Positions 7,708-63,989 of a DNA stretch of 64,000 bases are shown here, piece by piece. Under the pieces are notes generated by a model. That model worked only from the letters and a program-made list of their open reading frames with translations. It had not been told where the DNA came from and ran no database searches. This DNA comes from Escherichia coli (GTDB lineage: Bacteria > Pseudomonadota > Gammaproteobacteria > Enterobacterales > Enterobacteriaceae): the NCBI RefSeq assembly GCF_001677475.2, contig NZ_CP015229.1; one strand, written 5' to 3'. The translations under genes and the position numbers were made by a program. The first letter of the stretch is position 1; the number at the start of each line of letters is the position of its first letter.

Positions 7708-7780
7708 GAGGGGAGTTCGATGTAAACATTGCGACAGTATCGCATCCGGCAAATAGCGCCAGACGCGATACAAAGGTCAT

Positions 7781-9514: not shown

Positions 9515-9649
9515 AGTAAGAACCTGTCTTGAAAAAAATATCGCCGAATGTACCGACAATTCCTTAAGGATATCTGAAGGGATATCCAGAATTTGAATAA
9601 AATGCAGACAGAAATATATTGAAAACGAGGGTGTTAGAACAGAAGTATT

Positions 9650-9682
9650 TCAGAAAACCCTCGCGCAAAAGCGCGAGGGTTT
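9650..9682 (-). terminator. Intrinsic terminator of ppc
   Basis: GC-rich hairpin ccctcgcgc..gcgcgaggg followed by a T-run on minus strand, just 3' of the ppc stop. Confidence 0.7.
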
Positions 9683-9696
9683 GCAGGAGAGGAAGA

Positions 9697-12348
9697 TTAG
9701 CCGGTATTACGCATACCTGCCGCAATCCCGGCAATAGTGACCATTAACGCCTGCTCGACGCGAGGATCCGGCTCATGGCCTTCTTTTTCTGCCTGGCGGG
9801 AGCGGTGCAGCAACTCGGCCTGCAATACGTTCAGCGGGTCGGTGTAAATATTCCGTAGCTGAATAGACTCTGCAATCCACGGCAGATCGGCCATCAGATG
9901 GGAATCGTTGGCAATCGCCAGCACCACTTTGATGTCTTCTTCTTGCAGATTGCGTAACTCTTTACCTAACGGCCACAGTGCTTTGTCTACCAGACGTTGA
10001 TCATAGTATTCCGCCAGCCACAGGTCTGCTTTGGCGAATACCATTTCCAGCATACCCAGACGCGTCGAGAAGAACGGCCAATCGCGGCACATAGCCTCCA
10101 GCTCGCTCTGTTTGCCGTCTTCGACCACTTTTTGCAGCGCCGTACCTGCACCCAGCCAGGCGGGGAGCATCAGGCGGTTTTGCGTCCAGGCGAAAATCCA
10201 CGGAATGGCGCGTAGTGACTCGACGCCGCCGGTTGGGCGACGTTTCGCCGGACGTGAACCCAACGGCAGTTTGCCCAGTTCTTGTTCCGGCGTAGCGGAG
10301 CGGAAGTAAGGCACAAAATCTTTGTTTTCACGTACGTAGCCACGGTAGAGATCGCAGGAGATGACTGACAGTTCATCCATAATGCGACGCCAGCTCTCTT
10401 TCGGCTCAGGTGGTGGCAGCAGGTTGGCTTCCAGAATCGCCCCGGTGTACAGCGACAGGCTGCTGACGGTGATTTCTGGCAGACCATATTTAAAGCGGAT
10501 CATCTCGCCCTGTTCAGTCACGCGCAGGCCACCTTTCAGGCTTCCTGGCGGTTGTGACAGCAGCGCCGCATGAGCAGGTGCGCCGCCACGACCAATGGAA
10601 CCGCCGCGACCGTGGAACAACGTCAGCTCAATACCCGCTTTTTCGCAGGTTTTGATTAATGCATCCTGTGCCTGATATTGCGCCCAGGAAGCTGCCATCA
10701 CGCCCGCATCTTTTGCTGAGTCGGAATAGCCAATCATCACCATCTGTTTGCCCTGAATCAGGCCGCGATACCAGTCGATATTGAGCAGCTGGGTCATGAC
10801 ATCGTTGGCGTTGTTCAGGTCATCGAGAGTTTCAAACAGCGGAGCAACCGGCATTGCAAACCCGATACCCGCTTCTTTCAGCAGCAGGTGGACAGCCAGC
10901 ACGTCGGACGGCGTTTTCGCCATCGAGATCACGTAGGCGGCAATGGAGCCTTGCGGCGCTTCGGCAATCACCTGGCAGGTATCGAGCACTTCGCGCGTTT
11001 CGGCGCTTGGTTGCCAGTTGCGCGGCAGAAGCGGACGTTTGGAGTTCAGTTCGCGGATCAGGAACGCCTGTTTGTCGGCCTCTGACCAGCTTTCGTAGTC
11101 GCCGATACCGAGGTAGCGGGTCAGCTCGCCCAGCGCTTCGGTATGGCGGGTGCTCTCCTGACGGATATCAATACGGACCAGCGGTACGCCGAAACATTTC
11201 ACGCGGCGCAGGGTGTCGAGCAGATCGCCGTTGGCGATAATACCCATGCCACACGCCTGAAGTGACTGGTAGCAAGCGTAGAGCGGTTCCCACAGTTCTT
11301 CGTTTTGTGTCAGCAGGCCTTCTGGTTTTGGCAGTTCTTCGCCTTTCAGGCGCGCTTCCAGCCATGCCTGTGTCGCCATCAGGCGAGAACGCAGGTTTTT
11401 CATCAGATAGCGATACGGTTCTGCGGCACCTTCTTCGCCAACCAGCGCCAGCAGTTCAGGGGTCGCTTCAACCATCGACAGTTCAGAAACCAGCACCTGA
11501 ATATCTTTCAGGAACAGATCGGTGGCTTTCCAGCGACTGAGCAGCAGGACGTGGCGGGTGATATCGGCAGTGACGTTCGGGTTGCCGTCGCGGTCACCGC
11601 CCATCCACGAGGTAAAACGGACCGGAACAAATTCGACGGGCAGTTTGTAGCCGAGATTCTCTTCCAGTTGTTCGTTCAGTTCGCGCAGGTAATTTGGTAC
11701 GCCTTGCCACAGGCTGTTTTCTACTACGGCAAAGCCCCATTTGGCTTCATCTACCGGGCTTGGACGCAGCTTACGGATTTCATCGGTATGCCATGACTGG
11801 GCGATCAACTGGCGCAGGCGGCGCATCAGCTGGTTGTGTTCGTAGTCAGCGATATCTTTGTTATCGAGCTGTTTTAAACAGGCGTTCACTTCCACCATTT
11901 TGTGGATCAGCGTACGACGGGTAATTTCGGTTGGGTGAGCCGTGAGGACCAGTTCCAGCGACAGCGATTCCACTGCTTTTTTGATGGTGTCTTCGCTCAG
12001 TTCCGGCTGGTTTTTCAGTTTACGCAGGGTGCGGGCGATCACTTCCGGGTTGCTGGCAGCTTCGCCTTTCGGCGAAATGCTGTGGTATTGCTCGGCGGTG
12101 TTGGCCAGGTTCAGGAACTGACTAAACGCACGCGCAACGGGCAGCAGCTCGTCGTTCGACAAATTTTGTAAGGTGGTGAGCAACTCCTGGCGGTTAGCAT
12201 CATTGCCAGCGCGTGAAGATTTGGACAACTTACGGATAGTTTCTACGCGTTCAAGAATGTGTTCTCCCAACGCATCCTTGATGGTTTCTCCCAGCACTTT
12301 GCCGAGCATACTGACATTACTACGCAATGCGGAATATTGTTCGTTCAT
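9697..12348 (-). CDS. ppc: Phosphoenolpyruvate carboxylase
   Basis: 883-aa [32 protein letters not shown].. through C-terminal ..GMRNTG. Confidence 0.97.
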
Positions 12349-12675
12349 ATTACCCCAGACACCCCATCTTATCGTTTGATAGCCCTGTATCCTTCACGTC
12401 GCATTGGCGCGAATATGCTCGGGCTTTGCTTTTCGTCGTCTTTTATAAAGCCACGTAAAAGCGGTGACGTCAAATGCTGCGAAATCGCTTCAGCAAACGA
12501 ATAAATAGCAGGAATTTACGTCATTAAATTCACGACGCTTTAAATAAGCGTAACTTATGGGAATGTTAAAAAATCGCCTCAAGTAACACCAAAGAGTTAT
12601 GAGTTGTAGTTACCATTTGGGCAATCATCTGAGATTGCTGACAAACTCGTTTACGGGTCAGTATGGGCACGGTTT

Positions 12676-12720
12676 TCCCCTCACCCTAACCCTCTCCCCG
12701 AAGGGGCGAGGGGACTGTCC
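12676..12720. repeat. GC-rich palindromic (REP-like) element in the ppc-argE intergenic region
   Basis: Imperfect inverted repeat cccctcaccctaaccctctcccc / ggggcgagggg around a gaag loop. Confidence 0.4.
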
Positions 12721-12760
12721 GTGCGCTTGCATGGCTTTGTCATCAGCCTGATTTGCTTTT

Positions 12761-19855: not shown

Positions 19856-20184
19856 GGTAGGGCTTACCTGTTCTTATACATAAAAGCAACAGAATGGTAA
19901 CATTTTATCGCGGGTAAGCCAATTGATCCCCGTCATTAATCTGGCTATAGCGTGAGCGGCCTTTGCTTTGTCTGCCCCCTTCTTAACCCATTTATTTACT
20001 ATTAATCGCTTTTTCTTATGGCTGATAGTTTTATCTTGCCGAAGCGTGCTTTTTTGTTATTGTCTTTATGAAATATTCTTATAAAACAAACATATAAATA
20101 TTTTATATTGATGAGTTATTTGTATTTATACCATCAATAAAATCCGTTAATTAGCCTGTTTATAAGTGAATAAAGGAATAGCCG

Positions 20185-21351
20185 ATGATCGAACACTATA
20201 TTCGAGGGTTTGAGGAAGAACTGCGTGAGATCCGCCATCAGATCCACGAAAACCCGGAGCTGGGATTACAAGAATTTAAAACCAGTGCTTTGGTGGCGGA
20301 AAAGCTGCGTCAGTGGGGCTATGAAGTAGAGCAAGGACTGGCGACGACGGGGATAGTGGCCACGTTAAAAGTGGGCGACGGAGAGAAAAGTATTGGCCTG
20401 CGGGCGGATATGGATGCGCTGCCAATTTATGAAAATAGTGGCAAGCCCTGGGCCAGTAAACATCCTGGTTTAATGCACGCCTGCGGGCATGACGGGCATA
20501 CCACCATACTGCTGGGGGCCGCGCGTTATTTTGCCGAAACCCGCCGTTTTAACGGCACGTTACGTCTTATCTTCCAGCCTGCGGAAGAGATGATTAACGG
20601 CGGTGAGATCATGGTTAAAGAGGGGCTTTTTGATCATTTCCCCTGCGATGTCATTTTCGGCATGCATAACATGCCCGGTCTGCCGGTGGGTAAGTTTTAT
20701 TTCCAGCCAGGGGAACTGATGGCGTCAATGGATCAGTTCCATATTACAGTTCGTGGTTGTGGCGGACACGGTGCGATCCCGCACAAAGCCATCGATCCGG
20801 TGCTGGTTGCCGCACATATCACCACCGCATTACAAAGCATTGTGTCGCGCAATGTCGATCCGCTGGAAGCGGCGGTAATTACCGTCGGCAGCATTGTTGC
20901 GGGTGAGGCGGCTAACGTCATTCCTGACAGTGCTGAGATGAAAATCAGCGTCCGCTCTCTTAGCCGCGATACCCGACAACTTCTTCTGACCCGTATTCCT
21001 GCTCTGGCACAAACCCAGGCTGCCAGCTTTGGTGCTACGGCTGAGGTTACGCATGTTAACGGTACACCGGTATTAGTGAATGACGAGGAGATGGCGCGCT
21101 TCGCCTGGCAGGTGGCGTGTAAAACGTTTGGTGAAGATCGGGCCGAGTTTGGCATCAAGCCCCTGATGGGCAGTGAGGATTTCTCTTTCATGCTGGAAGC
21201 CCAGCCGAAAGGCGCTTTTTTGCTGTTCGGTAATGGCGATGTCGGGGAAGGTTCCTGCATGGTGCATAACCCGGGTTACGACTTCAACGATGCAAGTCTG
21301 GTCCCGGCATGCAGCTACTGGGGCGCACTGGTAGAAGCTTGGCTGCAATAA
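20185..21351 (+). CDS. M20D-family metal-dependent amidohydrolase (hippurate hydrolase / N-acyl-amino-acid deacylase-like)
   Basis: 388-aa ORF; HACGHDGH metal-binding signature; GGAGG-like RBS (aaaggaa) upstream; no signal peptide. Confidence 0.8.
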   Translation: MIEHYIRGFEEELREIRHQIHENPELGLQEFKTSALVAEKLRQWGYEVEQGLATTGIVATLKVGDGEKSIGLRADMDALPIYENSGKPWASKHPGLMHACGHDGHTTILLGAARYFAETRRFNGTLRLIFQPAEEMINGGEIMVKEGLFDHFPCDVIFGMHNMPGLPVGKFYFQPGELMASMDQFHITVRGCGGHGAIPHKAIDPVLVAAHITTALQSIVSRNVDPLEAAVITVGSIVAGEAANVIPDSAEMKISVRSLSRDTRQLLLTRIPALAQTQAASFGATAEVTHVNGTPVLVNDEEMARFAWQVACKTFGEDRAEFGIKPLMGSEDFSFMLEAQPKGAFLLFGNGDVGEGSCMVHNPGYDFNDASLVPACSYWGALVEAWLQ

Positions 21352-21393
21352 ATAAAACAACACACAACAACACTTTTTGGCAAGGAACATGGA

Positions 21394-22710
21394 ATGACGG
21401 CGATCGTAAATGAAACCGTGAGTGTGAAGAAAAAGCCCAGCGGTAAGCGGGTGATTTTTGCTTCGGCGTTTGGCAATGCGCTCGAATTTTTTGATTTTGG
21501 CGTTTACAACTTTTTTGTGGTCTATATCAGTACGCTTTTCTTCCCACCCAGCGCTGATCACAATGTCGCGCTGTTACTGGCATTTGCAACATTTGGCGTG
21601 AGTTTTTTTATGCGCCCGCTTGGTGGAATTATCGTCGGGGCCTGGGCCGATCGCTTCGGACGCAAACCCGCGATGGTGTTCACCATTGCCCTGATGAGCC
21701 TCGGTACACTGATGATCGGCATCGCACCGACGTATGAAACGGCGGGCTATTGGGGAACCGCGACGCTGGTGCTGGCGCGTCTAATTCAGGGCGTTGCGGC
21801 AGGAGGCGAAGTCGGTGCCTCAATGTCTTTGTTGGTTGAATCAGCTCCGGCAAATCGTCGCGGCTTTTACAGCAGTTGGTCACTGGCGACTCAAGGCCTG
21901 GCAACAACCTTTGGTGGTGTTGTCGCTTTAGGTTTAAGCGCATGGCTGCCCTTTGCGACAGGTTCAGAAACCGTAATGGCTGAATGGGGCTGGCGTGTGC
22001 CATTTTTTATTGGCGTGTTATTAGCACCTATCGGTTGCTGGTTGCGTCTGAGCCTGGAAAATGACGTACCTGAGCTAGTGCGCAATAAAAAAGCTGCTAC
22101 CAGCGAAAGCGCGTTCTCTCTGCTCCTGCAACATAAGGCGACTATCGTTAACGGCGTTTTACTCGCTATTGGTAGCACGGTCGCAACCTATATCTCCCTC
22201 TTTTATTACGGCACCTGGGCGGCGAAGTATCTGGCGATGCCTCAACATTATTCTCATGCAGCGATGTTACTGGCGGGCGTTATTACGTTTGTGGGTGCGC
22301 TGCTTGTGGGGATGTTGTGCGATTCGGTCGGGCGTAAAAAGCTGATTTTAATCTCCCGTGTGATGGTGCTGATCTGTAGCTGGCCGTCATTCTGGCTGTT
22401 GGTGAATTACCCAAGCCCTGGCATGTTGCTGACGGTGGTTTTCGTGATGGTCAGCTTTACCACGCTTGGCGGTGTGCCGGTAATGTTGCTGATCTCTGAA
22501 CTGTTGCCGAAACGGATTCGGGCATTGGGTTTTGCGCTGGTTTATAGCATTGGTGTGGCAATCTTTGGCGGTTTTGCTCAATATTTCGCTACGCAATCCA
22601 TCGTGTTGCTGGATAGTTTGACAGCTCCGGCGTGGTATTTGGGTGGAGGCACGTTGCTGTCGATGCTGGCGTTGTTGTACGTAAAAGAACCGGCCAAAGA
22701 ATTGCAGTAA
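21394..22710 (+). CDS. Major facilitator superfamily permease, metabolite:H+ symporter (MHS) type
   Basis: 438-aa hydrophobic ORF; [13 protein letters not shown] (GxxxDRxGRK) motif; 42 bp after the amidohydrolase, same strand. Confidence 0.8.
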
Positions 22711-46956: not shown

Positions 46957-49900
46957 GTGAAAGATTTATTAAAGTTTCTGAAAGCGCAGACTAAAACCGA
47001 AGAGTTTGATGCGATCAAAATTGCTCTGGCTTCGCCAGACATGATCCGTTCATGGTCTTTCGGTGAAGTTAAAAAGCCGGAAACCATCAACTACCGTACG
47101 TTCAAACCAGAACGTGACGGCCTTTTCTGCGCCCGTATCTTTGGGCCGGTAAAAGATTACGAGTGCCTGTGCGGTAAGTACAAGCGCCTGAAACACCGTG
47201 GCGTCATCTGTGAGAAGTGCGGCGTTGAAGTGACCCAGACTAAAGTACGCCGTGAGCGTATGGGCCACATCGAACTGGCTTCCCCGACTGCGCACATCTG
47301 GTTCCTGAAATCGCTGCCGTCCCGTATCGGCCTGCTGCTCGATATGCCGCTGCGCGATATCGAACGCGTACTGTACTTCGAATCCTATGTGGTTATCGAA
47401 GGCGGTATGACCAACCTGGAACGTCAGCAGATCCTGACTGAAGAGCAGTATCTGGACGCGCTGGAAGAGTTCGGTGACGAATTCGACGCGAAAATGGGTG
47501 CGGAAGCAATCCAGGCCCTGCTGAAGAGCATGGATCTGGAGCAAGAGTGCGAACAGCTGCGTGAAGAGCTGAACGAAACTAACTCCGAAACCAAGCGTAA
47601 AAAGCTGACCAAGCGTATCAAACTGCTGGAAGCGTTCGTTCAGTCTGGTAACAAACCAGAGTGGATGATCCTGACCGTTCTGCCGGTACTGCCGCCAGAT
47701 CTGCGTCCGCTGGTTCCGCTGGATGGTGGTCGTTTCGCGACTTCTGACCTGAACGATCTGTATCGTCGCGTCATTAACCGTAACAACCGTCTGAAACGTC
47801 TGCTGGATCTGGCTGCGCCGGACATCATCGTACGTAACGAAAAACGTATGCTGCAGGAAGCGGTTGACGCCCTGTTGGATAACGGTCGTCGCGGTCGTGC
47901 GATCACCGGTTCTAACAAGCGTCCTCTGAAATCTTTGGCCGACATGATCAAAGGTAAACAGGGTCGTTTCCGTCAGAACTTGCTCGGTAAGCGTGTTGAC
48001 TACTCCGGTCGTTCTGTAATCACCGTAGGTCCATACCTGCGTCTGCATCAGTGCGGTCTGCCGAAGAAAATGGCACTGGAGCTGTTCAAACCGTTCATCT
48101 ATGGCAAGCTGGAACTGCGTGGTCTTGCTACCACCATTAAAGCTGCGAAGAAAATGGTTGAGCGCGAAGAAGCTGTCGTTTGGGATATCCTGGACGAAGT
48201 TATCCGCGAACACCCGGTACTGCTGAACCGTGCACCGACTCTGCACCGTCTGGGTATCCAGGCATTTGAACCGGTACTGATCGAAGGTAAAGCTATCCAG
48301 CTGCACCCGCTGGTTTGTGCGGCATATAACGCCGACTTCGATGGTGACCAGATGGCTGTTCACGTACCGCTGACGCTGGAAGCCCAGCTGGAAGCGCGTG
48401 CGCTGATGATGTCTACCAACAACATCCTGTCCCCGGCGAACGGCGAACCAATCATCGTTCCGTCTCAGGACGTTGTTCTGGGTCTGTACTATATGACCCG
48501 TGACTGTGTTAACGCCAAAGGCGAAGGCATGGTGCTGACTGGCCCGAAAGAAGCAGAACGTCTGTATCGCTCTGGTCTGGCTTCTCTGCATGCGCGCGTT
48601 AAAGTGCGTATCACCGAGTATGAAAAAGATGCTAACGGTGAATTAGTAGCGAAAACCAGCCTGAAAGACACGACTGTTGGCCGTGCCATTCTGTGGATGA
48701 TTGTACCGAAAGGTCTGCCTTACTCCATCGTCAACCAGGCGCTGGGTAAAAAAGCAATCTCCAAAATGCTGAACACCTGCTACCGCATTCTCGGTCTGAA
48801 ACCGACCGTTATTTTTGCGGACCAGATCATGTACACCGGCTTCGCCTATGCAGCGCGTTCTGGTGCATCTGTTGGTATCGATGACATGGTCATCCCGGAG
48901 AAGAAACACGAAATCATCTCCGAGGCAGAAGCAGAAGTTGCTGAAATTCAGGAGCAGTTCCAGTCTGGTCTGGTAACTGCGGGCGAACGCTACAACAAAG
49001 TTATCGATATCTGGGCTGCGGCGAACGATCGTGTATCCAAAGCGATGATGGATAACCTGCAAACTGAAACCGTTATTAACCGTGACGGTCAGGAAGAGAA
49101 GCAGGTTTCCTTCAACAGCATCTACATGATGGCCGACTCCGGTGCGCGTGGTTCTGCGGCACAGATTCGTCAGCTTGCTGGTATGCGTGGTCTGATGGCG
49201 AAGCCGGATGGCTCCATCATCGAAACGCCAATCACCGCGAACTTCCGTGAAGGCCTGAACGTACTCCAGTACTTCATCTCCACCCACGGTGCTCGTAAGG
49301 GTCTGGCGGATACCGCACTGAAAACTGCGAACTCCGGTTACCTGACTCGTCGTCTGGTTGACGTGGCGCAGGACCTGGTGGTTACCGAAGACGATTGTGG
49401 TACCCATGAAGGTATCATGATGACTCCGGTTATCGAGGGTGGTGACGTTAAAGAGCCGCTGCGCGATCGCGTACTGGGTCGTGTAACTGCTGAAGACGTT
49501 CTGAAGCCGGGTACTGCTGATATACTCGTTCCGCGCAACACGCTGCTGCACGAACAGTGGTGTGACCTGCTGGAAGAGAACTCTGTCGACGCGGTTAAAG
49601 TACGTTCTGTTGTATCTTGTGACACCGACTTTGGTGTATGTGCGCACTGCTACGGTCGTGACCTGGCGCGTGGCCACATCATCAACAAAGGTGAGGCAAT
49701 CGGTGTTATCGCGGCACAGTCCATCGGTGAACCGGGTACACAGCTGACCATGCGTACGTTCCACATCGGTGGTGCGGCATCTCGTGCGGCTGCTGAATCC
49801 AGCATCCAGGTGAAAAACAAAGGTAGCATCAAGCTCAGCAACGTGAAGTCGGTTGTGAACTCCAGCGGTAAACTGGTTATCACTTCCCGTAACACCGAAC

Positions 49901-51180
49901 TGAAACTGATCGACGAATTCGGTCGTACCAAAGAAAGCTACAAAGTGCCTTACGGTGCGGTACTGGCGAAAGGCGATGGCGAACAGGTTGCTGGTGGCGA
50001 AACCGTTGCAAACTGGGACCCGCACACCATGCCGGTTATCACCGAAGTAAGCGGTTTTGTACGCTTTACTGACATGATCGACGGCCAGACCATTACGCGT
50101 CAGACCGACGAACTGACCGGTCTGTCTTCGCTGGTGGTTCTGGATTCCGCAGAACGTACCGCAGGTGGTAAAGATCTGCGTCCGGCACTGAAAATCGTTG
50201 ATGCTCAGGGTAACGACGTTCTGATCCCGGGTACCGATATGCCTGCGCAGTACTTCCTGCCGGGTAAAGCGATTGTTCAGCTGGAAGATGGCGTACAGAT
50301 CAGCTCTGGTGACACCCTGGCGCGTATTCCGCAGGAATCCGGCGGTACCAAGGACATCACCGGTGGTCTGCCGCGCGTTGCGGACCTGTTCGAAGCACGT
50401 CGTCCGAAAGAGCCGGCAATCCTGGCTGAAATCAGCGGTATCGTTTCCTTCGGTAAAGAAACCAAAGGTAAACGTCGTCTGGTTATCACCCCGGTAGATG
50501 GTAGCGATCCGTACGAAGAGATGATTCCGAAATGGCGTCAGCTCAACGTGTTTGAAGGTGAACGTGTAGAACGTGGTGACGTAATTTCCGACGGTCCGGA
50601 AGCGCCGCACGACATTCTGCGTCTGCGTGGTGTTCATGCTGTTACTCGTTACATCGTTAACGAAGTACAGGACGTATACCGTCTGCAGGGCGTTAAGATT
50701 AACGATAAACACATCGAAGTTATCGTTCGTCAGATGCTGCGTAAAGCTACCATCGTTAACGCGGGCAGCTCCGACTTCCTGGAAGGCGAACAGGTTGAAT
50801 ACTCTCGCGTCAAGATCGCAAACCGCGAACTGGAAGCGAACGGCAAAGTGGGTGCAACTTACTCCCGCGATCTGCTGGGTATCACCAAAGCGTCTCTGGC
50901 AACCGAGTCCTTCATCTCCGCGGCATCGTTCCAGGAGACCACTCGCGTGCTGACCGAAGCAGCCGTTGCGGGCAAACGCGACGAACTGCGCGGCCTGAAA
51001 GAGAACGTTATCGTGGGTCGTCTGATCCCGGCTGGTACCGGTTACGCGTATCACCAGGATCGTATGCGTCGCCGTGCTGCGGGTGAAGCTCCGGCTGCAC
51101 CGCAGGTGACTGCAGAAGACGCATCTGCCAGCCTGGCAGAACTGCTGAACGCAGGTCTGGGCGGTTCTGATAACGAGTAA
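46957..51180 (+). CDS. rpoC: DNA-directed RNA polymerase beta-prime subunit
   Basis: 1407-aa ORF from a GTG start (ORF track shows M); zinc-binding CxxC motifs; NADFDGD catalytic motif. Confidence 0.98.
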
Positions 51181-51202
51181 TCGTTAATCCGAAAATAACG
51201 TA

Positions 51203-51228
51203 AAAACCCGCTTCGGCGGGTTTTTTTA
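51203..51228 (+). terminator. rpoC intrinsic terminator
   Basis: aaaaacccgcttcggcgggttttttt. Confidence 0.9.
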
Positions 51229-51421
51229 TGGGAGTTATTCAGAGGGCAAAGTCTTCACGGGAAATATTAAGAAAGGCAGGGCGAAACGAGGAAGAAGCTT
51301 TTCGCCCTGGACAACATTCCTGCTGACGGCACTACCATAAAAAAACACAACGCTTTCAACAACCTTGCGTTTTTCATCTTCCGGAGCTGCTCGGAATAAA
51401 TTTACGTTCTTACATTCCGTC

Positions 51422-52555
51422 TCATGGCCTTTGCGAGGCGCGTCCCAGATAGCTGTCCCAGTCTTTCCATACCGGCTGCAAACCCTGAGCGGTTAACGCG
51501 GCAGCAACCGCTTCCGGTCTGCGATCGTCGTGTGGTGAGAACTGTTCCAGCTCGGGGTGATTGTCGGCATAACCCCCTGGCTGCGTTTTCGAGAAGGCGC
51601 TGACGTTATTGATCGCCAGCGGAATAACGCGATCGCGAAACCACGGTGATTCCCGCGTGGAGAGTGACAGTTCAATCTCCGGTGCAAGCAGTCGGAAGGC
51701 GCAGATGGTTTGCACTAACTGGCGTTCATCCATAATCGACGCAGGCTCAATGCCGCCAGTACACGGGCGCAGGCGCGGAAAGGAGACAGAGTAACGGCTT
51801 TGCCAGTAATGCTGTTGCAGCCATAGCAAATGTTCGGCAACCATATAGCAGTCAACGCGCCAGCTGTCGGAAAGGCCAATTAGCGCGCCGAGGCCTATCT
51901 TATCAATCCCCGCACACCCCAGCCGATCCGGCGTTTCCAGCCGCCAGAAGAAGTCCTGTTTTTTGCCTTTCAGATGATGACGGGCATATGTCGCCTCGTG
52001 ATACGTCTCCTGATAAACCATCACCCCATCGAGACCAAGCTGTTTTAGCTCGGCATATTCCGCCTCCGCCAGCGGTTGCACTTCCAGCTGTAGTGAAGAG
52101 AACTGTTCACGCAGGGCAGGAAGATGACGACGAAAGTAATCCATCCCCACTTTCGCCTGATGTTCACCAGTGACTAATAGCAGATGTTCAAAGCCCATCT
52201 CCCGTATAGCGGCGCTTTCCCTGGCAATATCCGCTTCATCCAGCGTTTTGCGCTTGATGCGGTTGCTCATGGAAAATCCGCAGTACGTGCAGTCGTTAGC
52301 GCAAAGATTGGAAAGATAAAGCGGGACGTAAAGACTGACAACGTTGCCAAATCGTTGACGGGTCAGACGCTGCGCCCGTTGGGCCAGTGGTTCCAGATAG
52401 CCACTGGCGGCTGGCGATAACAGCGCCATCATATCGTCGCGGGTGAGTTGCGAGGCATTTAGCGCCCGCTCTACGTCAGCAGCCGTTTTGCTGTTGATAT
52501 GCAGGCGGATGTCGTCCCAGTCCAGTTGTCGCCAGCGATCGCTGAAGGTTTTCAT
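51422..52555 (-). CDS. thiH: 2-iminoacetate synthase (tyrosine lyase, radical SAM)
   Basis: 377-aa ORF; CANDCTYC radical-SAM triad. Confidence 0.95.
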
Positions 52556-53322
52556 GCCGATGCCTCCAGAAATCCGGTCAGCGGGCTGGTGGCATGAGCA
52601 AAATGACTGCGGCTGCCCGGTCCGGCCTGACGTGCCAGCAGGCCTGCTTCTACCGCCAGGCGAAATGCCTTCGCCATGTTGACGGGATCGTCCGCGACGG
52701 CAATCGCCGTATTCACTAACACCGCGTCGGCCCCCATTTCCAGCGCCTGCGCGGCATGGCTGGGAACGCCGATGCCAGCGTCGACAACCACCGGAACCGT
52801 GGCTTGCTGGATAATAATCTCCAGCATGGCACGGGTTTCCAGTCCCTGATTCGAGCCAATCGGCGCGCCGAGCGGCATCACCGCTGCACAGCCGACTTCT
52901 TCCAGACGTTTACACAATACCGGATCGGCCCCGCAGTAAGGCAGCACGACAAATCCCTGTTGTACCAGCGTTTCGGCGGCTTTCAGGGTTTCGATGGGAT
53001 CGGGCAACAGCCAGCGGGCGTCAGGGTGAATCTCTAATTTTAGCCAGTTTGTGCCTAACGCTTCACGTGCCAGATGGGCGGCGAAAATGGCTTCTTCCGC
53101 TGTTTTCGCCCCGGATGTATTCGGTAGCAGGGTCACACCCGCCGCGATAAGCGGTTCGAGGATAGCGTCGTTGTGCTGGCGCAAGTCGACACGTTTCATC
53201 GCCAGCGTCACCAGTTGGCTGCCGGAAGCGCGAATAGACTCCACCATCAGTTGTGATGAGGCGAATTTCCCGGTGCCGGTAAACAGATGTGAATCAAACG
53301 TTTTGTCCGCAATACGTAACAT
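52552..53322 (-). CDS. thiG: Thiazole synthase
   Basis: ORF-track 52552..53580 trimmed to Met at 53322 ([20 protein letters not shown]..), 256 aa. Confidence 0.93.
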
Positions 53323-53323
53323 C

Positions 53324-53524
53324 TCAACCCCCTGCAATAACCTGAAAAAGCAGGATCTGGTCGCCATCCTGCACGATATGTTGCGCCCACTGCTCACGCG
53401 GGACGATTTGCTGATTAATCGCCAGAGCCGCGCCCGCTTGTCGTTGGTCGAGTTGCTCCAGTAGTTCGTGAACCGTTTGCCCGGCGGCGCACTGCATCGG
53501 TTGATCGTTAAACAGGATCTGCAT
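53324..53524 (-). CDS. thiS: Sulfur carrier protein ThiS (C-terminal Gly-Gly)
   Basis: ORF-track 53324..53551 trimmed to Met at 53524 ([15 protein letters not shown].. ..FQVIAGG), 66 aa. Confidence 0.9.
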
Positions 53525-54263
53525 TGCTTCCTCCGCATACTGGGCAACCACTGGCGCGGCGCAGCGCCAGGCTGCGCCACTGGCTAGACTTACCGTCGAA
53601 CAGTCGGAGTTCTCCCGCAGGCGTCTCTATACCGCTTAATAACTTAATGGCTTCCAGTGCCTGCAAAGTGCCCATAACCCCGACGACCGGGCCAACCACG
53701 CCCGCCGTGCGGCAGTTGCGTTCAGGCTCCTGGTTATCTGGCCACAGGCAGCGGTAACACCCCTGCTCCCAGGGCGGCGTCAGTACCATCAACTGACCGC
53801 CAAATCCGACCGCGCTGGCGGTGATAAGCGGCGTGTTGAGTGCCACGCAGGCGGCATTAATCTCCTGGCGAGTCGCCATATTGTCGGCACAGTCGAGCAC
53901 CACATCGGCTTGTGCAACCGCATCTTTTAACGCCTCACCCGTTAACCGTTGTTGTAGTGCTGTCAGTTGAATATCGGGATTCAACTGTGTCAGTCGCTGT
54001 TGGCTGACCTGCGATTTCGGGCGATCGATATCTTCAGTGGTAAAGAGGATTTGTCGTTGCAGATTGCTTAAATGCACATCGTCGTCATCTACCAGTACCA
54101 GCGTCCCGACGCCAGCGCCCGCCAGGTACAGCGCAGCAGGTGTCCCCAGCCCGCCAAGACCAATAATCAGCACCTGGCTATCGAGAAGTTTTTGCTGCCC
54201 GTCAAGAGCGATATCGTCGAGCAGGATTTGGCGGCTATAACGCATAAAATCACGGTCATTCAT
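53508..54263 (-). CDS. thiF: ThiS adenylyltransferase
   Basis: ORF-track 53508..54356 trimmed to Met at 54263 ([15 protein letters not shown]..), 251 aa; E1-like GLGGLG nucleotide-binding motif; C-terminal CPVCGG. Confidence 0.92.
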
Positions 54264-54890
54264 CGCCAACTCCTGCAATTTCCTGCAACTGTGCCGTTGC
54301 CAAACGCCAGTCTGCGGCTTGAGTAATGGCGCTGACAACGGCGATACTGCCGACACCCGTCGCCATTACCGCTGGCGCGCGCGCCAGACTGATACCGCCA
54401 ATCGCCACGGTGGGATAATCCGCCAGTCGCTCAACATGCCGTGCCAGCTGTTCCAGCCCCTGCGGTGCAGAAGGCATCTGTTTGGTTTGCGTCGGGAACA
54501 CATGTCCCAGCGCGATATAAGAAGGGCGTGCTGCCAGCGCGACGTCGATTTCCATATCATCATGGGTCGAAACGCCCAGCCGCAGACCAGCCGCGCGGAT
54601 GGCGCTGAGATCGGTGGCTTGCAAATCTTCCTGCCCCAAATGGACGCCATACGCCTGATGCTTGATCGCCAGCCGCCAGTAATCGTTGATAAACAATCGC
54701 GCGTTATAGCGGCGGCCCAGTGTAATTGCCGTCACGACATCGGCTTCCACCTCTTCATCGCGCCGATCTTTGATGCGTAGCTGGAGAGTACGTACACCTG
54801 CATCCAACAGACGTTCGATCCACTGTACGCTGTCCACCACCGGGTACAGTCCTAAACGAAAGGGTACAGGAGGAAAATCAGGCTGATACA

Positions 54891-54891
<1 letters not shown>
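54256..54891 (-). CDS. thiE: Thiamine-phosphate synthase
   Basis: ATG at 54891 ([20 protein letters not shown]..), 211 aa; start overlaps the thiC stop by 1 nt. Confidence 0.93.
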
Positions 54892-56965
<2,074 letters not shown>

Positions 56966-57018
56966 TTAGCCCCACACACGGGGCGTTGAATGTAAATTAC
57001 GCGTTAACAGCGTAGAAC

Positions 57019-57495
57019 TCAAGCGGGATGTTTGACGCGGGCGGCGTCAAGTACCAGCAGAATCAACTTATCTTCCAGCACAAAGCGTGCTTCCAGCGCC
57101 TCGCCGATGTCAGATAAAACCTGTTGAAACTCAAGGTAATTATCATGATCGATGGCGGTTTCCAGGCTGGAATCGTAGTAATCCATAATCTGTTGGGTAT
57201 TGGCTTCGAGTTGCGGCCAAATCTTCGCGGCGCGCGCGAGTTGCCCGTTGCCTTCCAGCTTATGAAGAATGCGCTCATAAATACTGAAATGTCCGGCAGA
57301 CAAGTAATCGACCAGGCTCTGACAAAAATCATCAAGGGCTTTTTCGTTTAGCCTCATGTACGATTCTTTGCCAGGCTTAATGCCAACCAGATTGTAGTAA
57401 GCCACGAGCAGATGCTTACGTACATGTAGCCAGCGATCAACCAGTTTGTTACTTCCTCTGACGCGCTCCGTCAGGTTATCGAGCTGGTTAAGCAT
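57019..57495 (-). CDS. rsd: Anti-sigma-70 factor Rsd
   Basis: 158-aa ORF, MLNQLDNLTERVRGSNKLVDRWLHVRKHLLVAYYNL.. Confidence 0.95.
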   Translation of the reverse strand: MLNQLDNLTERVRGSNKLVDRWLHVRKHLLVAYYNLVGIKPGKESYMRLNEKALDDFCQSLVDYLSAGHFSIYERILHKLEGNGQLARAAKIWPQLEANTQQIMDYYDSSLETAIDHDNYLEFQQVLSDIGEALEARFVLEDKLILLVLDAARVKHPA

Positions 57496-57589
57496 GATTG
57501 ACTCCGCAAGTTTGTATTCAAAAACTGCTCTGTGAGAAATGTAAAAACCATGTTAAACATGCCAGTGATGCAAAGGTAGTGCAAGAGCT

Positions 57590-58363
57590 ATGGATCGTAT
57601 AATTGAAAAATTAGATCACGGCTGGTGGGTCGTCAGCCATGAACAAAAATTATGGTTGCCGAAGGGAGAATTGCCATATGGCGAAGCGGCAAATTTCGAT
57701 CTTGTGGGTCAGCGCGCACTACAAATCGGCGAATGGCAGGGGGAACCTGTTTGGTTAGTACAACAGCAGCGGCGTCACGATATGGGGTCGGTACGTCAGG
57801 TCATTGATCTCGATGTTGGGCTGTTTCAACTGGCCGGACGTGGCGTGCAACTGGCGGAGTTTTACCGATCGCATAAATACTGTGGTTACTGCGGGCATGA
57901 AATGTATCCAAGCAAAACCGAATGGGCGATGCTGTGCAGCCATTGCCGTGAGCGTTACTACCCGCAAATCGCCCCCTGCATTATTGTTGCCATCCGTCGC
58001 GATGATTCGATCCTCCTCGCCCAGCATACCCGCCATCGTAACGGTGTCCATACAGTACTTGCCGGATTCGTCGAAGTGGGTGAAACCCTCGAGCAGGCAG
58101 TCGCGCGGGAAGTGATGGAAGAGAGCGGCATCAAAGTCAAAAATCTGCGTTATGTGACCTCCCAACCGTGGCCGTTTCCCCAGTCTTTAATGACCGCGTT
58201 TATGGCGGAATATGACAGCGGCGAGATCGTGATCGACCCGAAAGAATTGCTCGAGGCGAACTGGTATCGCTATGACGATTTGCCATTACTCCCGCCGCCC
58301 GGCACTGTAGCGCGCCGTCTGATAGAAGATACGGTGGCGATGTGTCGGGCAGAGTATGAGTGA
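57590..58363 (+). CDS. nudC: NADH pyrophosphatase / RNA decapping Nudix hydrolase
   Basis: 257-aa ORF; zinc-binding [12 protein letters not shown]; Nudix box [22 protein letters not shown]. Confidence 0.95.
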
Positions 58364-62612: not shown

Positions 62613-63989
62613 ATGCGTTTTATGCAACGTTCTAAAGACTCCTTAGCTAAATGGTTAAGCGCGATCCTCCCCGTGGTCATTGTTGGGCTGGTGGGGCTGT
62701 TTGCGGTGACTGTGATTCGCGATTATGGGCGCGAGACTGCCGCCGCCAGACAAACGCTGCTGGAAAAAGGCAGTGTACTTATCCGTGCTCTCGAATCCGG
62801 CTCGCGCGTCGGCATGGGGATGCGCATGCATCATGCGCAGCAGCAGGCATTACTGGAAGAAATGGCCGGGCAGCCTGGTGTACGTTGGTTTGCGGTCACG
62901 GATGAACAAGGAACAATCGTGATGCATAGCAACTCCGGCATGGTGGGAAAACAGCTTTATTCCCCGCAGGAAATGCAGCAGTTACATCCGGGAGATGAAG
63001 AAGCGTGGCGGCGGATCGATAGCGCAGACGGCGAGCCTGTTCTGGAAATTTATCGCCAGTTTCAACCGATGTTTGCTGCTGGAATGCACCGGATGCGCCA
63101 TATGCAGCAGTATGCCGCGACACCACAAGCAATTTTCATCGCTTTCGACGCCAGTAATATTGTGAGTGCCGAAGATCGTGAGCAGAGAAACACCCTGATT
63201 ATCCTTTTCGCCCTGGCGACGGTCTTGCTGGCAAGCGTATTGTCATTCTTCTGGTATCGCCGCTATCTGCGCTCGCGCCAGCTTCTACAAGATGAAATGA
63301 AGCGCAAAGAGAAGCTGGTGGCGCTGGGGCATCTTGCGGCAGGCGTTGCCCACGAAATCCGTAACCCACTTTCCTCGATTAAAGGACTGGCGAAATACTT
63401 TGCCGAGCGCGCGCCTGCAGGGGGAGAAGCGCATCAACTGGCGCAGGTGATGGCGAAAGAGGCCGACCGTTTAAACCGCGTGGTAAGCGAGTTGCTGGAA
63501 CTGGTTAAGCCAACGCATCTGGCTTTGCAGGCGGTGGATCTCAACACGCTGATTAACCACTCATTACAGCTGGTAAGCCAGGATGCAAACAGCCGGGAGA
63601 TCCAGTTACGCTTTACCGCCAACGACACATTACCGGAAATTCAGGCCGATCCGGACAGGCTGACTCAGGTCCTGTTGAATCTCTATCTCAATGCTATTCA
63701 GGCGATTGGTCAGCATGGCGTGATTAGCGTGACGGCCAGCGAAAGCGGCGCGGGCGTGAAAATTAGCGTTACCGACAGCGGTAAGGGAATTGCGGCAGAT
63801 CAGCTTGAAGCCATCTTCACCCCGTACTTCACCACCAAAGCCGAAGGCACCGGACTGGGGCTGGCGGTCGTGCATAATATTGTTGAACAACACGGTGGTA
63901 CAATTCAGGTCGCAAGCCAGGAGGGAAAAGGCGCAACGTTCACCCTCTGGCTTCCGGTCAATATTACGCGTAAGGACCCACAAGGATGA
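62613..63989 (+). CDS. zraS: Sensor histidine kinase ZraS
   Basis: 458-aa ORF; two TM segments flanking a periplasmic domain; H-box HLAAGVAHEIRNPL; G-boxes in the ATPase domain. Confidence 0.93.
   Translation: MRFMQRSKDSLAKWLSAILPVVIVGLVGLFAVTVIRDYGRETAAARQTLLEKGSVLIRALESGSRVGMGMRMHHAQQQALLEEMAGQPGVRWFAVTDEQGTIVMHSNSGMVGKQLYSPQEMQQLHPGDEEAWRRIDSADGEPVLEIYRQFQPMFAAGMHRMRHMQQYAATPQAIFIAFDASNIVSAEDREQRNTLIILFALATVLLASVLSFFWYRRYLRSRQLLQDEMKRKEKLVALGHLAAGVAHEIRNPLSSIKGLAKYFAERAPAGGEAHQLAQVMAKEADRLNRVVSELLELVKPTHLALQAVDLNTLINHSLQLVSQDANSREIQLRFTANDTLPEIQADPDRLTQVLLNLYLNAIQAIGQHGVISVTASESGAGVKISVTDSGKGIAADQLEAIFTPYFTTKAEGTGLGLAVVHNIVEQHGGTIQVASQEGKGATFTLWLPVNITRKDPQG

What the first reader, a model, noticed from the sequence alone, without database searches (positions are those of the whole stretch)
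51181..51421. Short rpoC-thiH spacer with no htrC/yjaZ-like ORF
Only 241 bp separate the rpoC stop (51180) from the convergent thiH stop (51422). The spacer holds the rpoC terminator but no ORF of 60 codons or more on either strand. My recollection is that K-12 has an approximately 180-codon gene (htrC/yjaZ) immediately downstream of rpoC in an AT-rich segment. If so, this genome carries the empty-site version, a second K-12-versus-this-strain indel in the window.
Basis: partly seen in the sequence, partly recalled or inferred. Interest (0 to 1): 0.3.

Follow-up and report, generated by a model that had tools for sequence, protein, structure and literature searches.

The report
Unoccupied rpoC–thiH gap lacking yjaZ–sroH
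This E. coli strain has the short, original form of the gap between the RNA polymerase gene rpoC and the thiamine gene thiH. K-12 and about two thirds of E. coli carry an extra, horizontally acquired gene-plus-small-RNA cassette (yjaZ–sroH) there, so this is an ordinary, already documented strain difference.

Summary
The rpoC stop is at 51178-51180 and the convergent thiH stop at 51422-51424. The 241-bp spacer has no ORF of 60 codons or more.

MG1655 has a 1,161-bp spacer at 42% GC. K-12 has 954 bp where the window has 34 bp (51233-51266).

The short form is common. It occurs in 1,635 of 5,420 complete E. coli genomes, including ST131, UPEC 536 and the type strain. The yjaZ form occurs in 3,717.

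The short form is the ancestral, never-occupied state. E. fergusonii and contigs labelled E. albertii have the same 241-bp architecture, diverged in proportion to the species distance. The nearest yjaZ–sroH relatives are on P1-like phage-plasmids and on tiny ColE1-type plasmids. Neither yjaZ nor sroH occurs anywhere in the 64-kb window.

The spacer itself holds only the rpoBC terminator and the thi operon's 3' end with two terminator-like hairpins.

The sroH presence/absence pattern was published in 2012, where its absence from B2+D was scored as a loss. The outgroups found here argue for ancestral absence instead.

Interest is low. The only mildly new point is that yjaZ–sroH behaves as a mobile two-gene module, and that module lies outside the window.

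The parts
51178..51180 (+). rpoC stop codon (TAA); end of the rplKAJL-rpoBC transcription unit's last gene
   Evidence: ORF 46957-51180, 1407 aa. The protein is the exact sequence found on E. coli contigs in 73,685 index blocks.
51202..51227 (+). rpoC intrinsic terminator: hairpin AAAAACCCGC-TTCG-GCGGGTTTTT plus a T-run. It is symmetric, so it also reads as a terminator on the - strand.
   Evidence: The RNA fold is -15.5 kcal/mol with z = -3.5, and 0 of 200 shuffles fold as well. The terminator scan reports the - strand reading at 51225-51202. The sequence is identical in K-12, O157, B2 strains and E. fergusonii.
51233..51266 (.). 34-bp allele-specific segment. This is the position where K-12-type genomes carry the 954-bp yjaZ-sroH segment.
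   Evidence: blastn-short leaves window 51233-51266 and K-12 spacer positions 53-1006 unaligned. The segment is polymorphic among short alleles. It is present, further diverged, in E. fergusonii and E. albertii. It has no significant similarity to the ends of the K-12 insert.
51267..51421 (-). 3' untranslated end of the thiCEFSGH operon, shared with K-12 at 98.7% over 155 bp
   Evidence: blastn; alignments.
51340..51375 (-). First terminator-like hairpin after thiH (AAAAACGCAAGG...CGUUGUGUUUUUUU, with a U7 tail)
   Evidence: Fold of 51275-51421 on the - strand: -46.3 kcal/mol, z = -2.9. The element is conserved in all alleles and in the outgroups. A terminator function is inferred, not shown.
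51277..51309 (-). Second hairpin, CAGGGCGAAA(13 nt)TTTCGCCCTG, followed on the - strand by CCTTTCTTAAT
   Evidence: Fold at -18.7 kcal/mol, z = -2.9. The same inverted repeat is I17 in the K-12 spacer. It is invariant in all alleles examined.
51422..51424 (-). thiH stop codon (TGA on the - strand)
   Evidence: ORF 51422-52555 (-), 377 aa. The exact protein is ANO91941.1, named ThiH of E. coli.

Best explanation
The 241-bp interval is the ancestral, unoccupied form of the rpoC-thiH intergenic region of the genus Escherichia. It works only as a convergent termination zone. It holds the symmetric intrinsic terminator of the rpoBC operon (51202-51227), a 34-bp filler (51233-51266), and the 155-bp 3' end of the thi operon with two terminator-like hairpins on the minus strand. 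K-12 and about 69% of sequenced E. coli differ because an AT-rich 954-bp segment replaced the 34-bp filler in one E. coli sub-lineage. That segment carries yjaZ (179 aa, function unknown) and the convergent sRNA gene sroH, which share a bidirectional terminator. It was acquired horizontally from the plasmid/phage-plasmid gene pool. The two alleles have since been reshuffled among lineages by homologous recombination in the flanks. The strain in the window never had the cassette at this site, and it lacks both yjaZ and sroH within the 64 kb. What is shown: the coordinates, the allele frequencies, the outgroup state, and the plasmid homologs. What is inferred: the direction of the event, the recombinational spread, and the terminator function of the thi hairpins. 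The insertion mechanism is unknown, because no target duplication, terminal repeat or recombinase gene was found.
For: Anatomy of the spacer.

K-12 state: a 1,161-bp spacer with yjaZ, sroH at 201 bits, and GC of 41-42% against 55% in the flanks.

Exact boundaries.

Frequency: 1,635 of 5,420 complete E. coli genomes are contiguous with the window across the gap, and 3,717 carry at least 80% of the K-12 segment.

Outgroups:
- L157/L166 is the AP027926.1 chromosome. Its ThiH, BED93774.1, is named E. fergusonii, and the neighbouring accession NZ_AP027927.1 is E. fergusonii strain 30038 plasmid p30038n1 (PMC13062560). Its thiHG is 93.4% identical to K-12 and its murB-birA-coaA region about 95% identical to a K-12-type E. 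coli locus (L152). It has a 241-bp spacer with the same junction.
- All 8 places shown, out of 24 contigs read, that carry that RpoC variant have the 241-bp gap.
- Contigs whose ThiH is named E. albertii are 94.7% identical to E. coli over thiE-H. They have a 241-bp gap with the same layout and a more diverged 34-bp filler.

Age of the alleles: short alleles show five or more variants within the 34-bp filler, while the long alleles examined are uniform at both ends.

Mobility of the cassette:
- YjaZ homologs (PF27200) are patchy, reaching Aeromonas, Thiolinea and cyanobacteria.
- 104 plasmid records match. The nearest, at 77-79% DNA identity, also cover about 140 bp downstream of the CDS.
- Those nearest matches lie among baseplate, tail, Ref and Icd genes of roughly 90-kb P1-like elements.
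- sroH sits directly after the yjaZ homolog in each of them.
- The same pair occurs in a 2,462-bp ColE1-type plasmid, where the yjaZ homolog is the only annotated CDS and Rfam finds only sroH and RNAI.

Recombination: L147 has a short allele next to a thiHG region only 0.1% different from K-12.
Against: 1. Skippington & Ragan 2012 (PMC3318445) scored the absence of sroH in B2+D, ATCC 8739, S. flexneri and S. sonnei 046 as secondary loss. That inference used a tree of 27 E. coli and Shigella genomes.

2. The 34-bp filler contains TCAGAGGGCAAAG, a 13/14 match to yjaZ codons 42-46. 21 of 500 shuffles score as well.

3. One genome, HH45, has a hybrid spacer in which 45 bp identical to yjaZ (counting the shared GAGGGCAAAG) run straight into the short-allele sequence at that motif. 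This could be read as a deletion intermediate.

4. The outgroup species labels rest on the names NCBI gives the protein records and on percent identity, not on a whole-genome phylogeny.

5. E. marmotae, E. ruysiae, E. whittamii and clade I were not examined.

Confidence: 0.88

Rival explanations
1. Deletion scar. The common ancestor of E. coli carried yjaZ-sroH between rpoC and thiH, and the window's lineage, like B2, lost it by a roughly 920-bp deletion. The 34-bp filler would then be what remains.
For: There is a 13/14 match between window 51238-51250 and yjaZ codons 42-46. The HH45 hybrid allele retains 45 bp of yjaZ fused at that motif. A published parsimony inference scored B2+D absence as loss (PMC3318445). 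O157:H7 shows that the gene does decay in place, through a 71-bp internal deletion.
Against: E. fergusonii and E. albertii have the same 241-bp spacer, and E. albertii reads GAGAGTCGAAA where E. coli reads GAGGGCAAAG. The motif is therefore ordinary spacer sequence, not yjaZ. The sequence match is only marginal, with 21 of 500 shuffles scoring as well. HH45 is 1 genome of 5,426, and its yjaZ fragment is identical to the modern A/B1 allele although O157 differs at 4 positions in that stretch, so it is recent. Short alleles are more polymorphic than long ones. The cassette has foreign GC content and plasmid relatives.
Confidence: 0.07
2. Relocation. The strain does carry yjaZ-sroH, but elsewhere, for example on a plasmid or a P1-like phage-plasmid. 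The local absence would then not mean the functions are missing.
For: yjaZ-sroH pairs occur on E. coli plasmids, both roughly 90-kb phage-plasmids and 2.4-kb ColE1-type plasmids.
Against: Nothing in the 64-kb window supports it. Only 16 of the 104 matching plasmid records are from Escherichia, and four of those are mislabelled chromosomes, so such plasmids are rare compared with the thousands of E. coli genomes. This reading does not change what the 241-bp spacer is.
Confidence: 0.05
3. Artefact. The short spacer results from an assembly collapse or a sequencing error in this record.
For: None found.
Against: A total of 1,635 complete genomes are contiguous across the gap. An independent NCBI contig (GCA_033729275.1) is identical to window 48422-55555 over 7,134 bp with 0 mismatches. 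Seventeen contigs encode the identical ThiH.
Confidence: 0.01

Closest known systems
Short rpoC-thiH spacer of phylogroup B2 and related E. coli (e.g. ATCC 11775T, ST131 strains, UPEC 536)
   Same: The spacer is 239-241 bp with the same order of elements: rpoC terminator, about 34-bp filler, then the thi 3' end with two hairpins. No yjaZ and no sroH.
   Different: There are a few SNPs and 1-2-bp indels in the filler. The window reads GGGAGTT...AAAGTCTTCACGGGAAATATT, and ATCC 11775 reads GGGTGTT...AATTCTTCACGGAATTTTT. The window also has a private C-to-A change at 51192, which reads A in the window but C in every other sequence aligned, including the E. fergusonii and E. albertii loci. The window's thiHG is about 3% from every E. 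coli compared.
K-12-type rpoC-yjaZ-sroH-thiH interval (MG1655 b3989 region)
   Same: The left 52 bp and right 155 bp of the spacer are 98-99% identical, with the same rpoC terminator and thi hairpins.
   Different: K-12 has 954 bp at 41% GC in place of the 34-bp filler. That segment holds yjaZ (179 aa; NCBIfam NF007263, PF27200) and sroH (RF00372), which share a bidirectional terminator.
Published sroH phyletic pattern (Skippington & Ragan 2012, Genome Biol Evol, PMC3318445)
   Same: That paper lists sroH as absent from B2+D, ATCC 8739, S. flexneri and S. sonnei 046. This is the same polymorphism seen from the sRNA side.
   Different: That study scored the absences as losses on a tree of 27 E. 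coli and Shigella genomes. The outgroup spacers found here point to ancestral absence for the B2+D-type allele.
Salmonella enterica and Lelliottia rpoC-thiH intervals
   Same: The same convergent gene pair is separated by low-GC accessory DNA, so the gap is a recurrent landing site.
   Different: The content differs. Salmonella has 1,459 bp at 38% GC with three small ORFs and no yjaZ or sroH. Lelliottia has about 2.7 kb with no yjaZ.

Membership tests
YjaZ/HtrC protein family (Pfam PF27200; NCBIfam NF007263) | An ORF of about 180 codons with sequence similarity to YjaZ, including the conserved DLSFLDAH motif, located between rpoC and thiH | tested here: not met
   No ORF longer than 43 aa touches the spacer. 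TBLASTN with K-12 YjaZ against the whole window gave a best E-value of 0.48, which is noise.
sroH sRNA (Rfam RF00372) | A match to the covariance model at or above the 80-bit gathering score | tested here: not met
   No sroH was found in window 50000-58000 at E<=0.01 or in the whole window at gathering thresholds. K-12 scores 201 bits.
Short ('empty') rpoC-thiH allele of Escherichia | Uninterrupted collinearity from the rpoC 3' end to the thiH 3' end over about 240 bp, with the junction TATGGG(A/T)GTTATTCAGAG...AAGAAAGG | tested here: met
   1,635 genomes align in one place covering at least 80% of window 51000-51600. The alignments show the same junction.
Short ('empty') rpoC-thiH allele of Escherichia | The same architecture is present in sister species, showing the state is ancestral | tested here: met
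   E. fergusonii has it, and so do the E. albertii-labelled contigs. Other Escherichia species were not sampled.
Rho-independent (intrinsic) terminator of the rpoBC operon | A GC-rich hairpin followed by a U-run directly downstream of the rpoC stop | tested here: met
   The hairpin is at 51202-51225 with a T7 run, and folds at -15.5 kcal/mol with z = -3.5. Termination activity was not measured.
Mobile-element insertion site (attachment site or transposon target) | Target-site duplication, terminal inverted repeats or a recombinase gene at the borders of the K-12-specific segment | tested here: not met
   No repeat pair brackets the insert convincingly. The filler's similarity to the insert ends is no better than that of shuffled sequence: 670 of 1000 and 346 of 1000 shuffles score as well. 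The 954 bp contain no recombinase ORF.

The most novel reading that the evidence does not exclude
The segment missing from this window may be more than a stray orphan gene. yjaZ-sroH could be a self-contained mobile two-gene module: an uncharacterised 180-aa protein gene plus a convergent 160-nt sRNA whose 3' end abuts the stop codon through a shared bidirectional terminator. The pair travels together on P1-like phage-plasmids, on large plasmids (sroH was checked only on two roughly 90-kb elements, one short metagenomic contig and one 2.4-kb ColE1-type plasmid) and as the only cargo of that 2.4-kb ColE1-type plasmid. It has landed in the rpoC-thiH terminator gap of part of E. coli. Such a stable pairing would fit an RNA-controlled toxin, exclusion or maintenance function that has not been described. 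The rpoC-thiH gap would then be a recurrent landing pad for accessory DNA in Enterobacteriaceae.
Probability: 0.2. Interest if true: 0.45.

Novelty: already known. Interest (0 to 1): 0.1.

Why it matters
For the window itself it matters little. The spacer is an ordinary terminator region, and the difference from K-12 is a common accessory-gene polymorphism that pangenome and sRNA surveys already capture. There are two small practical consequences. First, annotation transferred from K-12 should not expect yjaZ or sroH in this strain or in B2-type strains. Second, the published inference that sroH was lost in B2+D probably has the direction reversed, because E. fergusonii and E. albertii share the short spacer. 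The side observation may be worth a separate look, because yjaZ's original heat-shock assignment has been retracted (PMC11551758) and no function for sroH turned up in the limited literature search. That observation is that yjaZ and sroH are inherited as a pair on phage-plasmids and a tiny plasmid.

Tried and rejected
1. The genome-contig scan used the rpoC terminator core (AAAAACCCGCTTCGGCGGGTTTTTTT) to collect outgroup loci. Outgroups were recovered another way, by exact-protein look-ups with RplL, the E. fergusonii RpoC variant and named ThiH cluster members.

2. The deletion-scar idea was raised by the first MAFFT alignment and by HH45. It was rejected after the outgroup spacers and the shuffle test.

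3. A search for target-site duplications or terminal inverted repeats around the K-12 insert found nothing convincing.

4. A local thiHG NJ tree was built to see whether short alleles form one clade. They do not. Short and long alleles are interspersed, which fits recombination and makes the local tree uninformative about polarity.

5. A conserved small ORF starting at the ATG just after the terminator was considered (32 aa in the window at 51228-51326, 53 aa in HH45, 4 aa in K-12). It is not conserved and was rejected.

6. A function for YjaZ was sought. The local Pfam copy, PADLOC, PHROGs, PDB sequences and the phage collection all returned nothing. Literature searches for yjaZ, htrC and sroH returned little.

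7. The below-threshold rsmX-like Rfam hit over the rpoC 3' end and terminator in K-12 and HH45 (31 bits against a 56-bit gathering score) was treated as a chance hairpin match.

Full report
**The observation**

The rpoC ORF runs from 46957 to 51180 on the + strand, with its TAA stop at 51178-51180. The thiH ORF runs from 52555 to 51422 on the - strand, with its TGA stop at 51422-51424. The spacer 51181-51421 is 241 bp. The longest ORFs touching it are 43, 37, 36 and 32 aa. The absence of a 60-codon ORF in 241 bp is unremarkable in itself.

**The K-12 comparison**

In MG1655 (NZ_CP010438.1) rpoC ends at 305754, yjaZ occupies 305967-306506 (179 aa), and the thiH stop is at 306916. The K-12 derivative NEB10-beta gives the same picture (L001). 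The K-12 spacer is 1,161 bp at 42% GC, between genes of 55% GC.

K-12 spacer positions 1-52 align to window 51181-51232, and positions 1007-1161 align to window 51267-51421, both at 98-99% identity. K-12 therefore has 954 bp where the window has 34 bp (51233-51266), a net difference of 920 bp.

It lies on the - strand directly after the yjaZ stop and shares a bidirectional terminator hairpin with yjaZ.

The window has no YjaZ-like coding potential; the best TBLASTN E-value is 0.48. It also has no sroH.

**What the 241 bp contain**

- The rpoBC terminator hairpin AAAAACCCGC-TTCG-GCGGGTTTTT lies at 51202-51225, with a T-run to 51227. It folds at -15.5 kcal/mol with z = -3.5, and because it is symmetric it also reads as a terminator on the other strand.
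- The 34-bp filler lies at 51233-51266.
- The 155-bp 3' end of the thi operon follows. On the - strand it has a hairpin with a U7 tail at 51375-51340 and a second hairpin, CAGGGCGAAA...TTTCGCCCTG, at 51309-51277.
- No promoter-like site was found.

The region is a convergent termination zone and nothing more. The terminator role of the two thi hairpins is inferred from structure and conservation.

**How common the short form is**

Among 5,426 complete RefSeq E. coli genomes, 1,635 align to window 51000-51600 in one uninterrupted place. A further 3,717 carry at least 80% of the K-12-specific segment. About 68 have other states, such as an IS1 insertion.

Short-allele strains include ST131, UPEC 536 and the type strain ATCC 11775. 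Long-allele strains include K-12, IAI1, and O111, O121 and O145 strains. O157:H7 has a 71-bp internal deletion that truncates the protein to 147 aa.

The polymorphism is already in the literature from the sRNA side. Skippington & Ragan 2012 list sroH as absent from B2+D, ATCC 8739, S. flexneri and S. sonnei 046 (PMC3318445).

**Empty site or deletion scar?**

The first alignment raised a doubt. The filler contains TCAGAGGGCAAAG, a 13/14 match to yjaZ codons 42-46. One genome, HH45, has a 304-bp spacer in which 45 bp identical to yjaZ run straight into short-allele sequence at that motif. Five lines of evidence reject the scar reading.

1. *Outgroups.* An exact-protein look-up with RplL returned a chromosome, AP027926.1 (L157/L166). 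Its thiHG is 93.4% identical to K-12 and its murB-birA-coaA region about 95% identical to a K-12-type E. coli locus (L152).
   - Its ThiH is BED93774.1, named E. fergusonii.
   - The adjacent accession is E. fergusonii strain 30038 plasmid p30038n1 (PMC13062560).
   - It has a 241-bp spacer with the same junction.
   - All 8 places shown, out of 24 contigs read, that carry its RpoC variant also have the 241-bp gap.
   - Contigs whose ThiH is named E. albertii are 94.7% identical to E. coli over thiE-H. They also have a 241-bp gap with the same layout, and they read GAGAGTCGAAA where E. coli has GAGGGCAAAG. The motif is therefore ordinary spacer sequence.
2. *Statistics.* The match to yjaZ is marginal, with 21 of 500 shuffles scoring as well. 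The filler resembles the ends of the K-12 insert no better than shuffled sequence does.
3. *HH45 is recent.* The HH45 allele occurs in 1 of 5,426 genomes. Its yjaZ fragment is identical to the modern A/B1 allele, although O157 differs at four positions in that stretch, so the event is recent.
4. *Allele diversity.* Short alleles show at least five variants within the filler, whereas the long alleles examined are uniform at both borders.
5. *Origin of the cassette.* The cassette looks foreign and has mobile relatives (next section).

Short and long alleles are interspersed on the local thiHG tree. For example, L147 is short but only 0.1% from K-12 in thiHG. This is best explained by recombination in the flanks. 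The published inference of 'loss in B2+D' probably has the direction reversed, although secondary replacement in some A/B1 and Shigella lineages remains plausible.

**Where the cassette comes from**

YjaZ matches only its own families, NCBIfam NF007263 and precomputed Pfam PF27200. The local Pfam copy, PADLOC, PHROGs, PDB sequences and the phage collection returned nothing. Its original heat-shock (htrC) assignment has been retracted (PMC11551758).

Homologs are patchily distributed across Enterobacterales, Aeromonas, Oceanimonas, Thiolinea and cyanobacteria. They occur on 104 plasmid records.

The nearest relatives have 77-79% DNA identity, extending about 140 bp beyond the CDS. They lie on roughly 90-kb elements of E. 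fergusonii, E. marmotae and E. coli, among baseplate, tail, Ref, Icd and HigBA genes. These are P1-like phage-plasmids.

Rfam finds sroH directly after the yjaZ homolog in these elements. It also finds sroH in a 2,462-bp ColE1-type plasmid where the yjaZ homolog is the only annotated CDS and Rfam detects only sroH and RNAI besides. The pair therefore behaves as a unit.

No target duplication, terminal repeat or recombinase marks the chromosomal insertion, so the insertion mechanism is unknown. Salmonella (1,459 bp, 38% GC, three small ORFs) and Lelliottia (about 2.7 kb) carry unrelated accessory DNA in the same gap.

**The strain**

The window's ThiH is ANO91941.1 (E. coli), encoded on a 5,498,453-bp contig. 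An independent NCBI contig is identical to window 48422-55555, so the sequence is genuine. No complete RefSeq E. coli genome is more than 98.7% identical over 24.5 kb. The thiHG region is about 3% from every E. coli compared. The lineage is therefore poorly represented among complete genomes.

**Verdict**

The window carries the ancestral, unoccupied rpoC-thiH spacer, and K-12 carries a horizontally acquired yjaZ-sroH cassette. This is a common and already documented polymorphism with no unusual feature at the given coordinates. Interest is low. The most novel reading the evidence leaves open concerns the cassette, not the window: yjaZ-sroH may be an undescribed mobile protein-plus-sRNA module.

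Noticed in passing
window 19975-22675: About 2.7 kb is present here where K-12 has 73 bp, between sthA and fabR. It carries two ORFs: 20185-21351 (+, 388 aa, which by eye looks like an M20-type amidohydrolase) and 21394-22710 (+, 438 aa, which by eye looks like an MFS transporter). Neither assignment was tested.
   Followed up: partly
window 7739-7780; 12595-12758; 62905-63188: There are smaller differences from K-12. The yijO-eptC gap is 42 bp against 108 bp. The ppc-argE gap is 164 bp against 349 bp. A roughly 280-bp stretch inside zraS is too diverged for megablast, and ZraS is 458 aa here against a 1,398-bp (about 465-aa) gene in K-12.
   Followed up: no
window 39500-64000 (whole window by implication): No genome among 5,426 complete RefSeq E. 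coli is more than 98.7% identical over 24.5 kb of core genes. thiHG is about 3% from every E. coli compared. Even so, an NCBI E. coli contig (GCA_033729275.1) is 100% identical over 7,134 bp. The strain belongs to a lineage that is rare among complete genomes.
   Followed up: partly
L125 5001-5693; L128 5001-5732; L129 632-1326; L173 541-1240; L174 9015-9554: yjaZ homologs and sroH always occur as a tail-to-tail pair outside the chromosome. They are found in roughly 90-kb P1-like phage-plasmids of E. fergusonii, E. marmotae and E. coli, among baseplate, tail, Ref and Icd genes. They are also found in a 2,462-bp ColE1-type plasmid where the yjaZ homolog is the only annotated CDS and Rfam detects only sroH and RNAI besides. 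This suggests a functional protein-sRNA module of unknown role.
   Followed up: partly
L004 2028-2127 (E. coli HH45, NZ_CP116411.1): This genome has a unique 304-bp hybrid spacer, seen in 1 of 5,426 genomes. It has the short-allele frame, with 32 bp of unknown origin plus 35 bp identical to yjaZ inserted exactly at the 10-bp motif GAGGGCAAAG that yjaZ and the short allele share. It may be a microhomology-mediated recombinant. It remains unexplained.
   Followed up: partly
L003 2194-2637 (E. coli O157:H7): O157:H7 genomes carry yjaZ with a 71-bp internal deletion, giving a truncated 147-aa 'protein HtrC'. The cassette is decaying in place in that lineage.
   Followed up: no
L172 7135-8593 (Salmonella enterica); L078 about 9562-12308 (Lelliottia nimipressuralis): The rpoC-thiH gap holds unrelated accessory DNA in other genera. 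Salmonella has 1,459 bp at 38% GC with three small ORFs (71, 62 and 114 aa). Lelliottia has about 2.7 kb. Neither has yjaZ, and sroH was checked and not found only in Salmonella. The gap looks like a recurrent landing site.
   Followed up: partly
L154 1-7000: In one E. coli assembly (GCA_002028945.1) secE-nusG is preceded by rpsL-rpsG-fusA-tuf instead of murB-birA-coaA-tRNAs-tufB. This is the arrangement expected from recombination between the tufA and tufB genes.
   Followed up: no
L148-L157, about 9024-9437 (rplA-rplJ gap): The rplA-rplJ intergenic region comes in two lengths among E. coli, 291 bp and 412 bp. In this small sample the length partly tracks the yjaZ allele. The window has the 412-bp K-12-like form.
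   Followed up: no
PMC3318445, table of sRNA gains and losses: The published inference that sroH was lost in B2+D was made on a tree of 27 E. coli and Shigella genomes. The short spacers of E. fergusonii and E. albertii found here suggest ancestral absence instead.
   Followed up: partly
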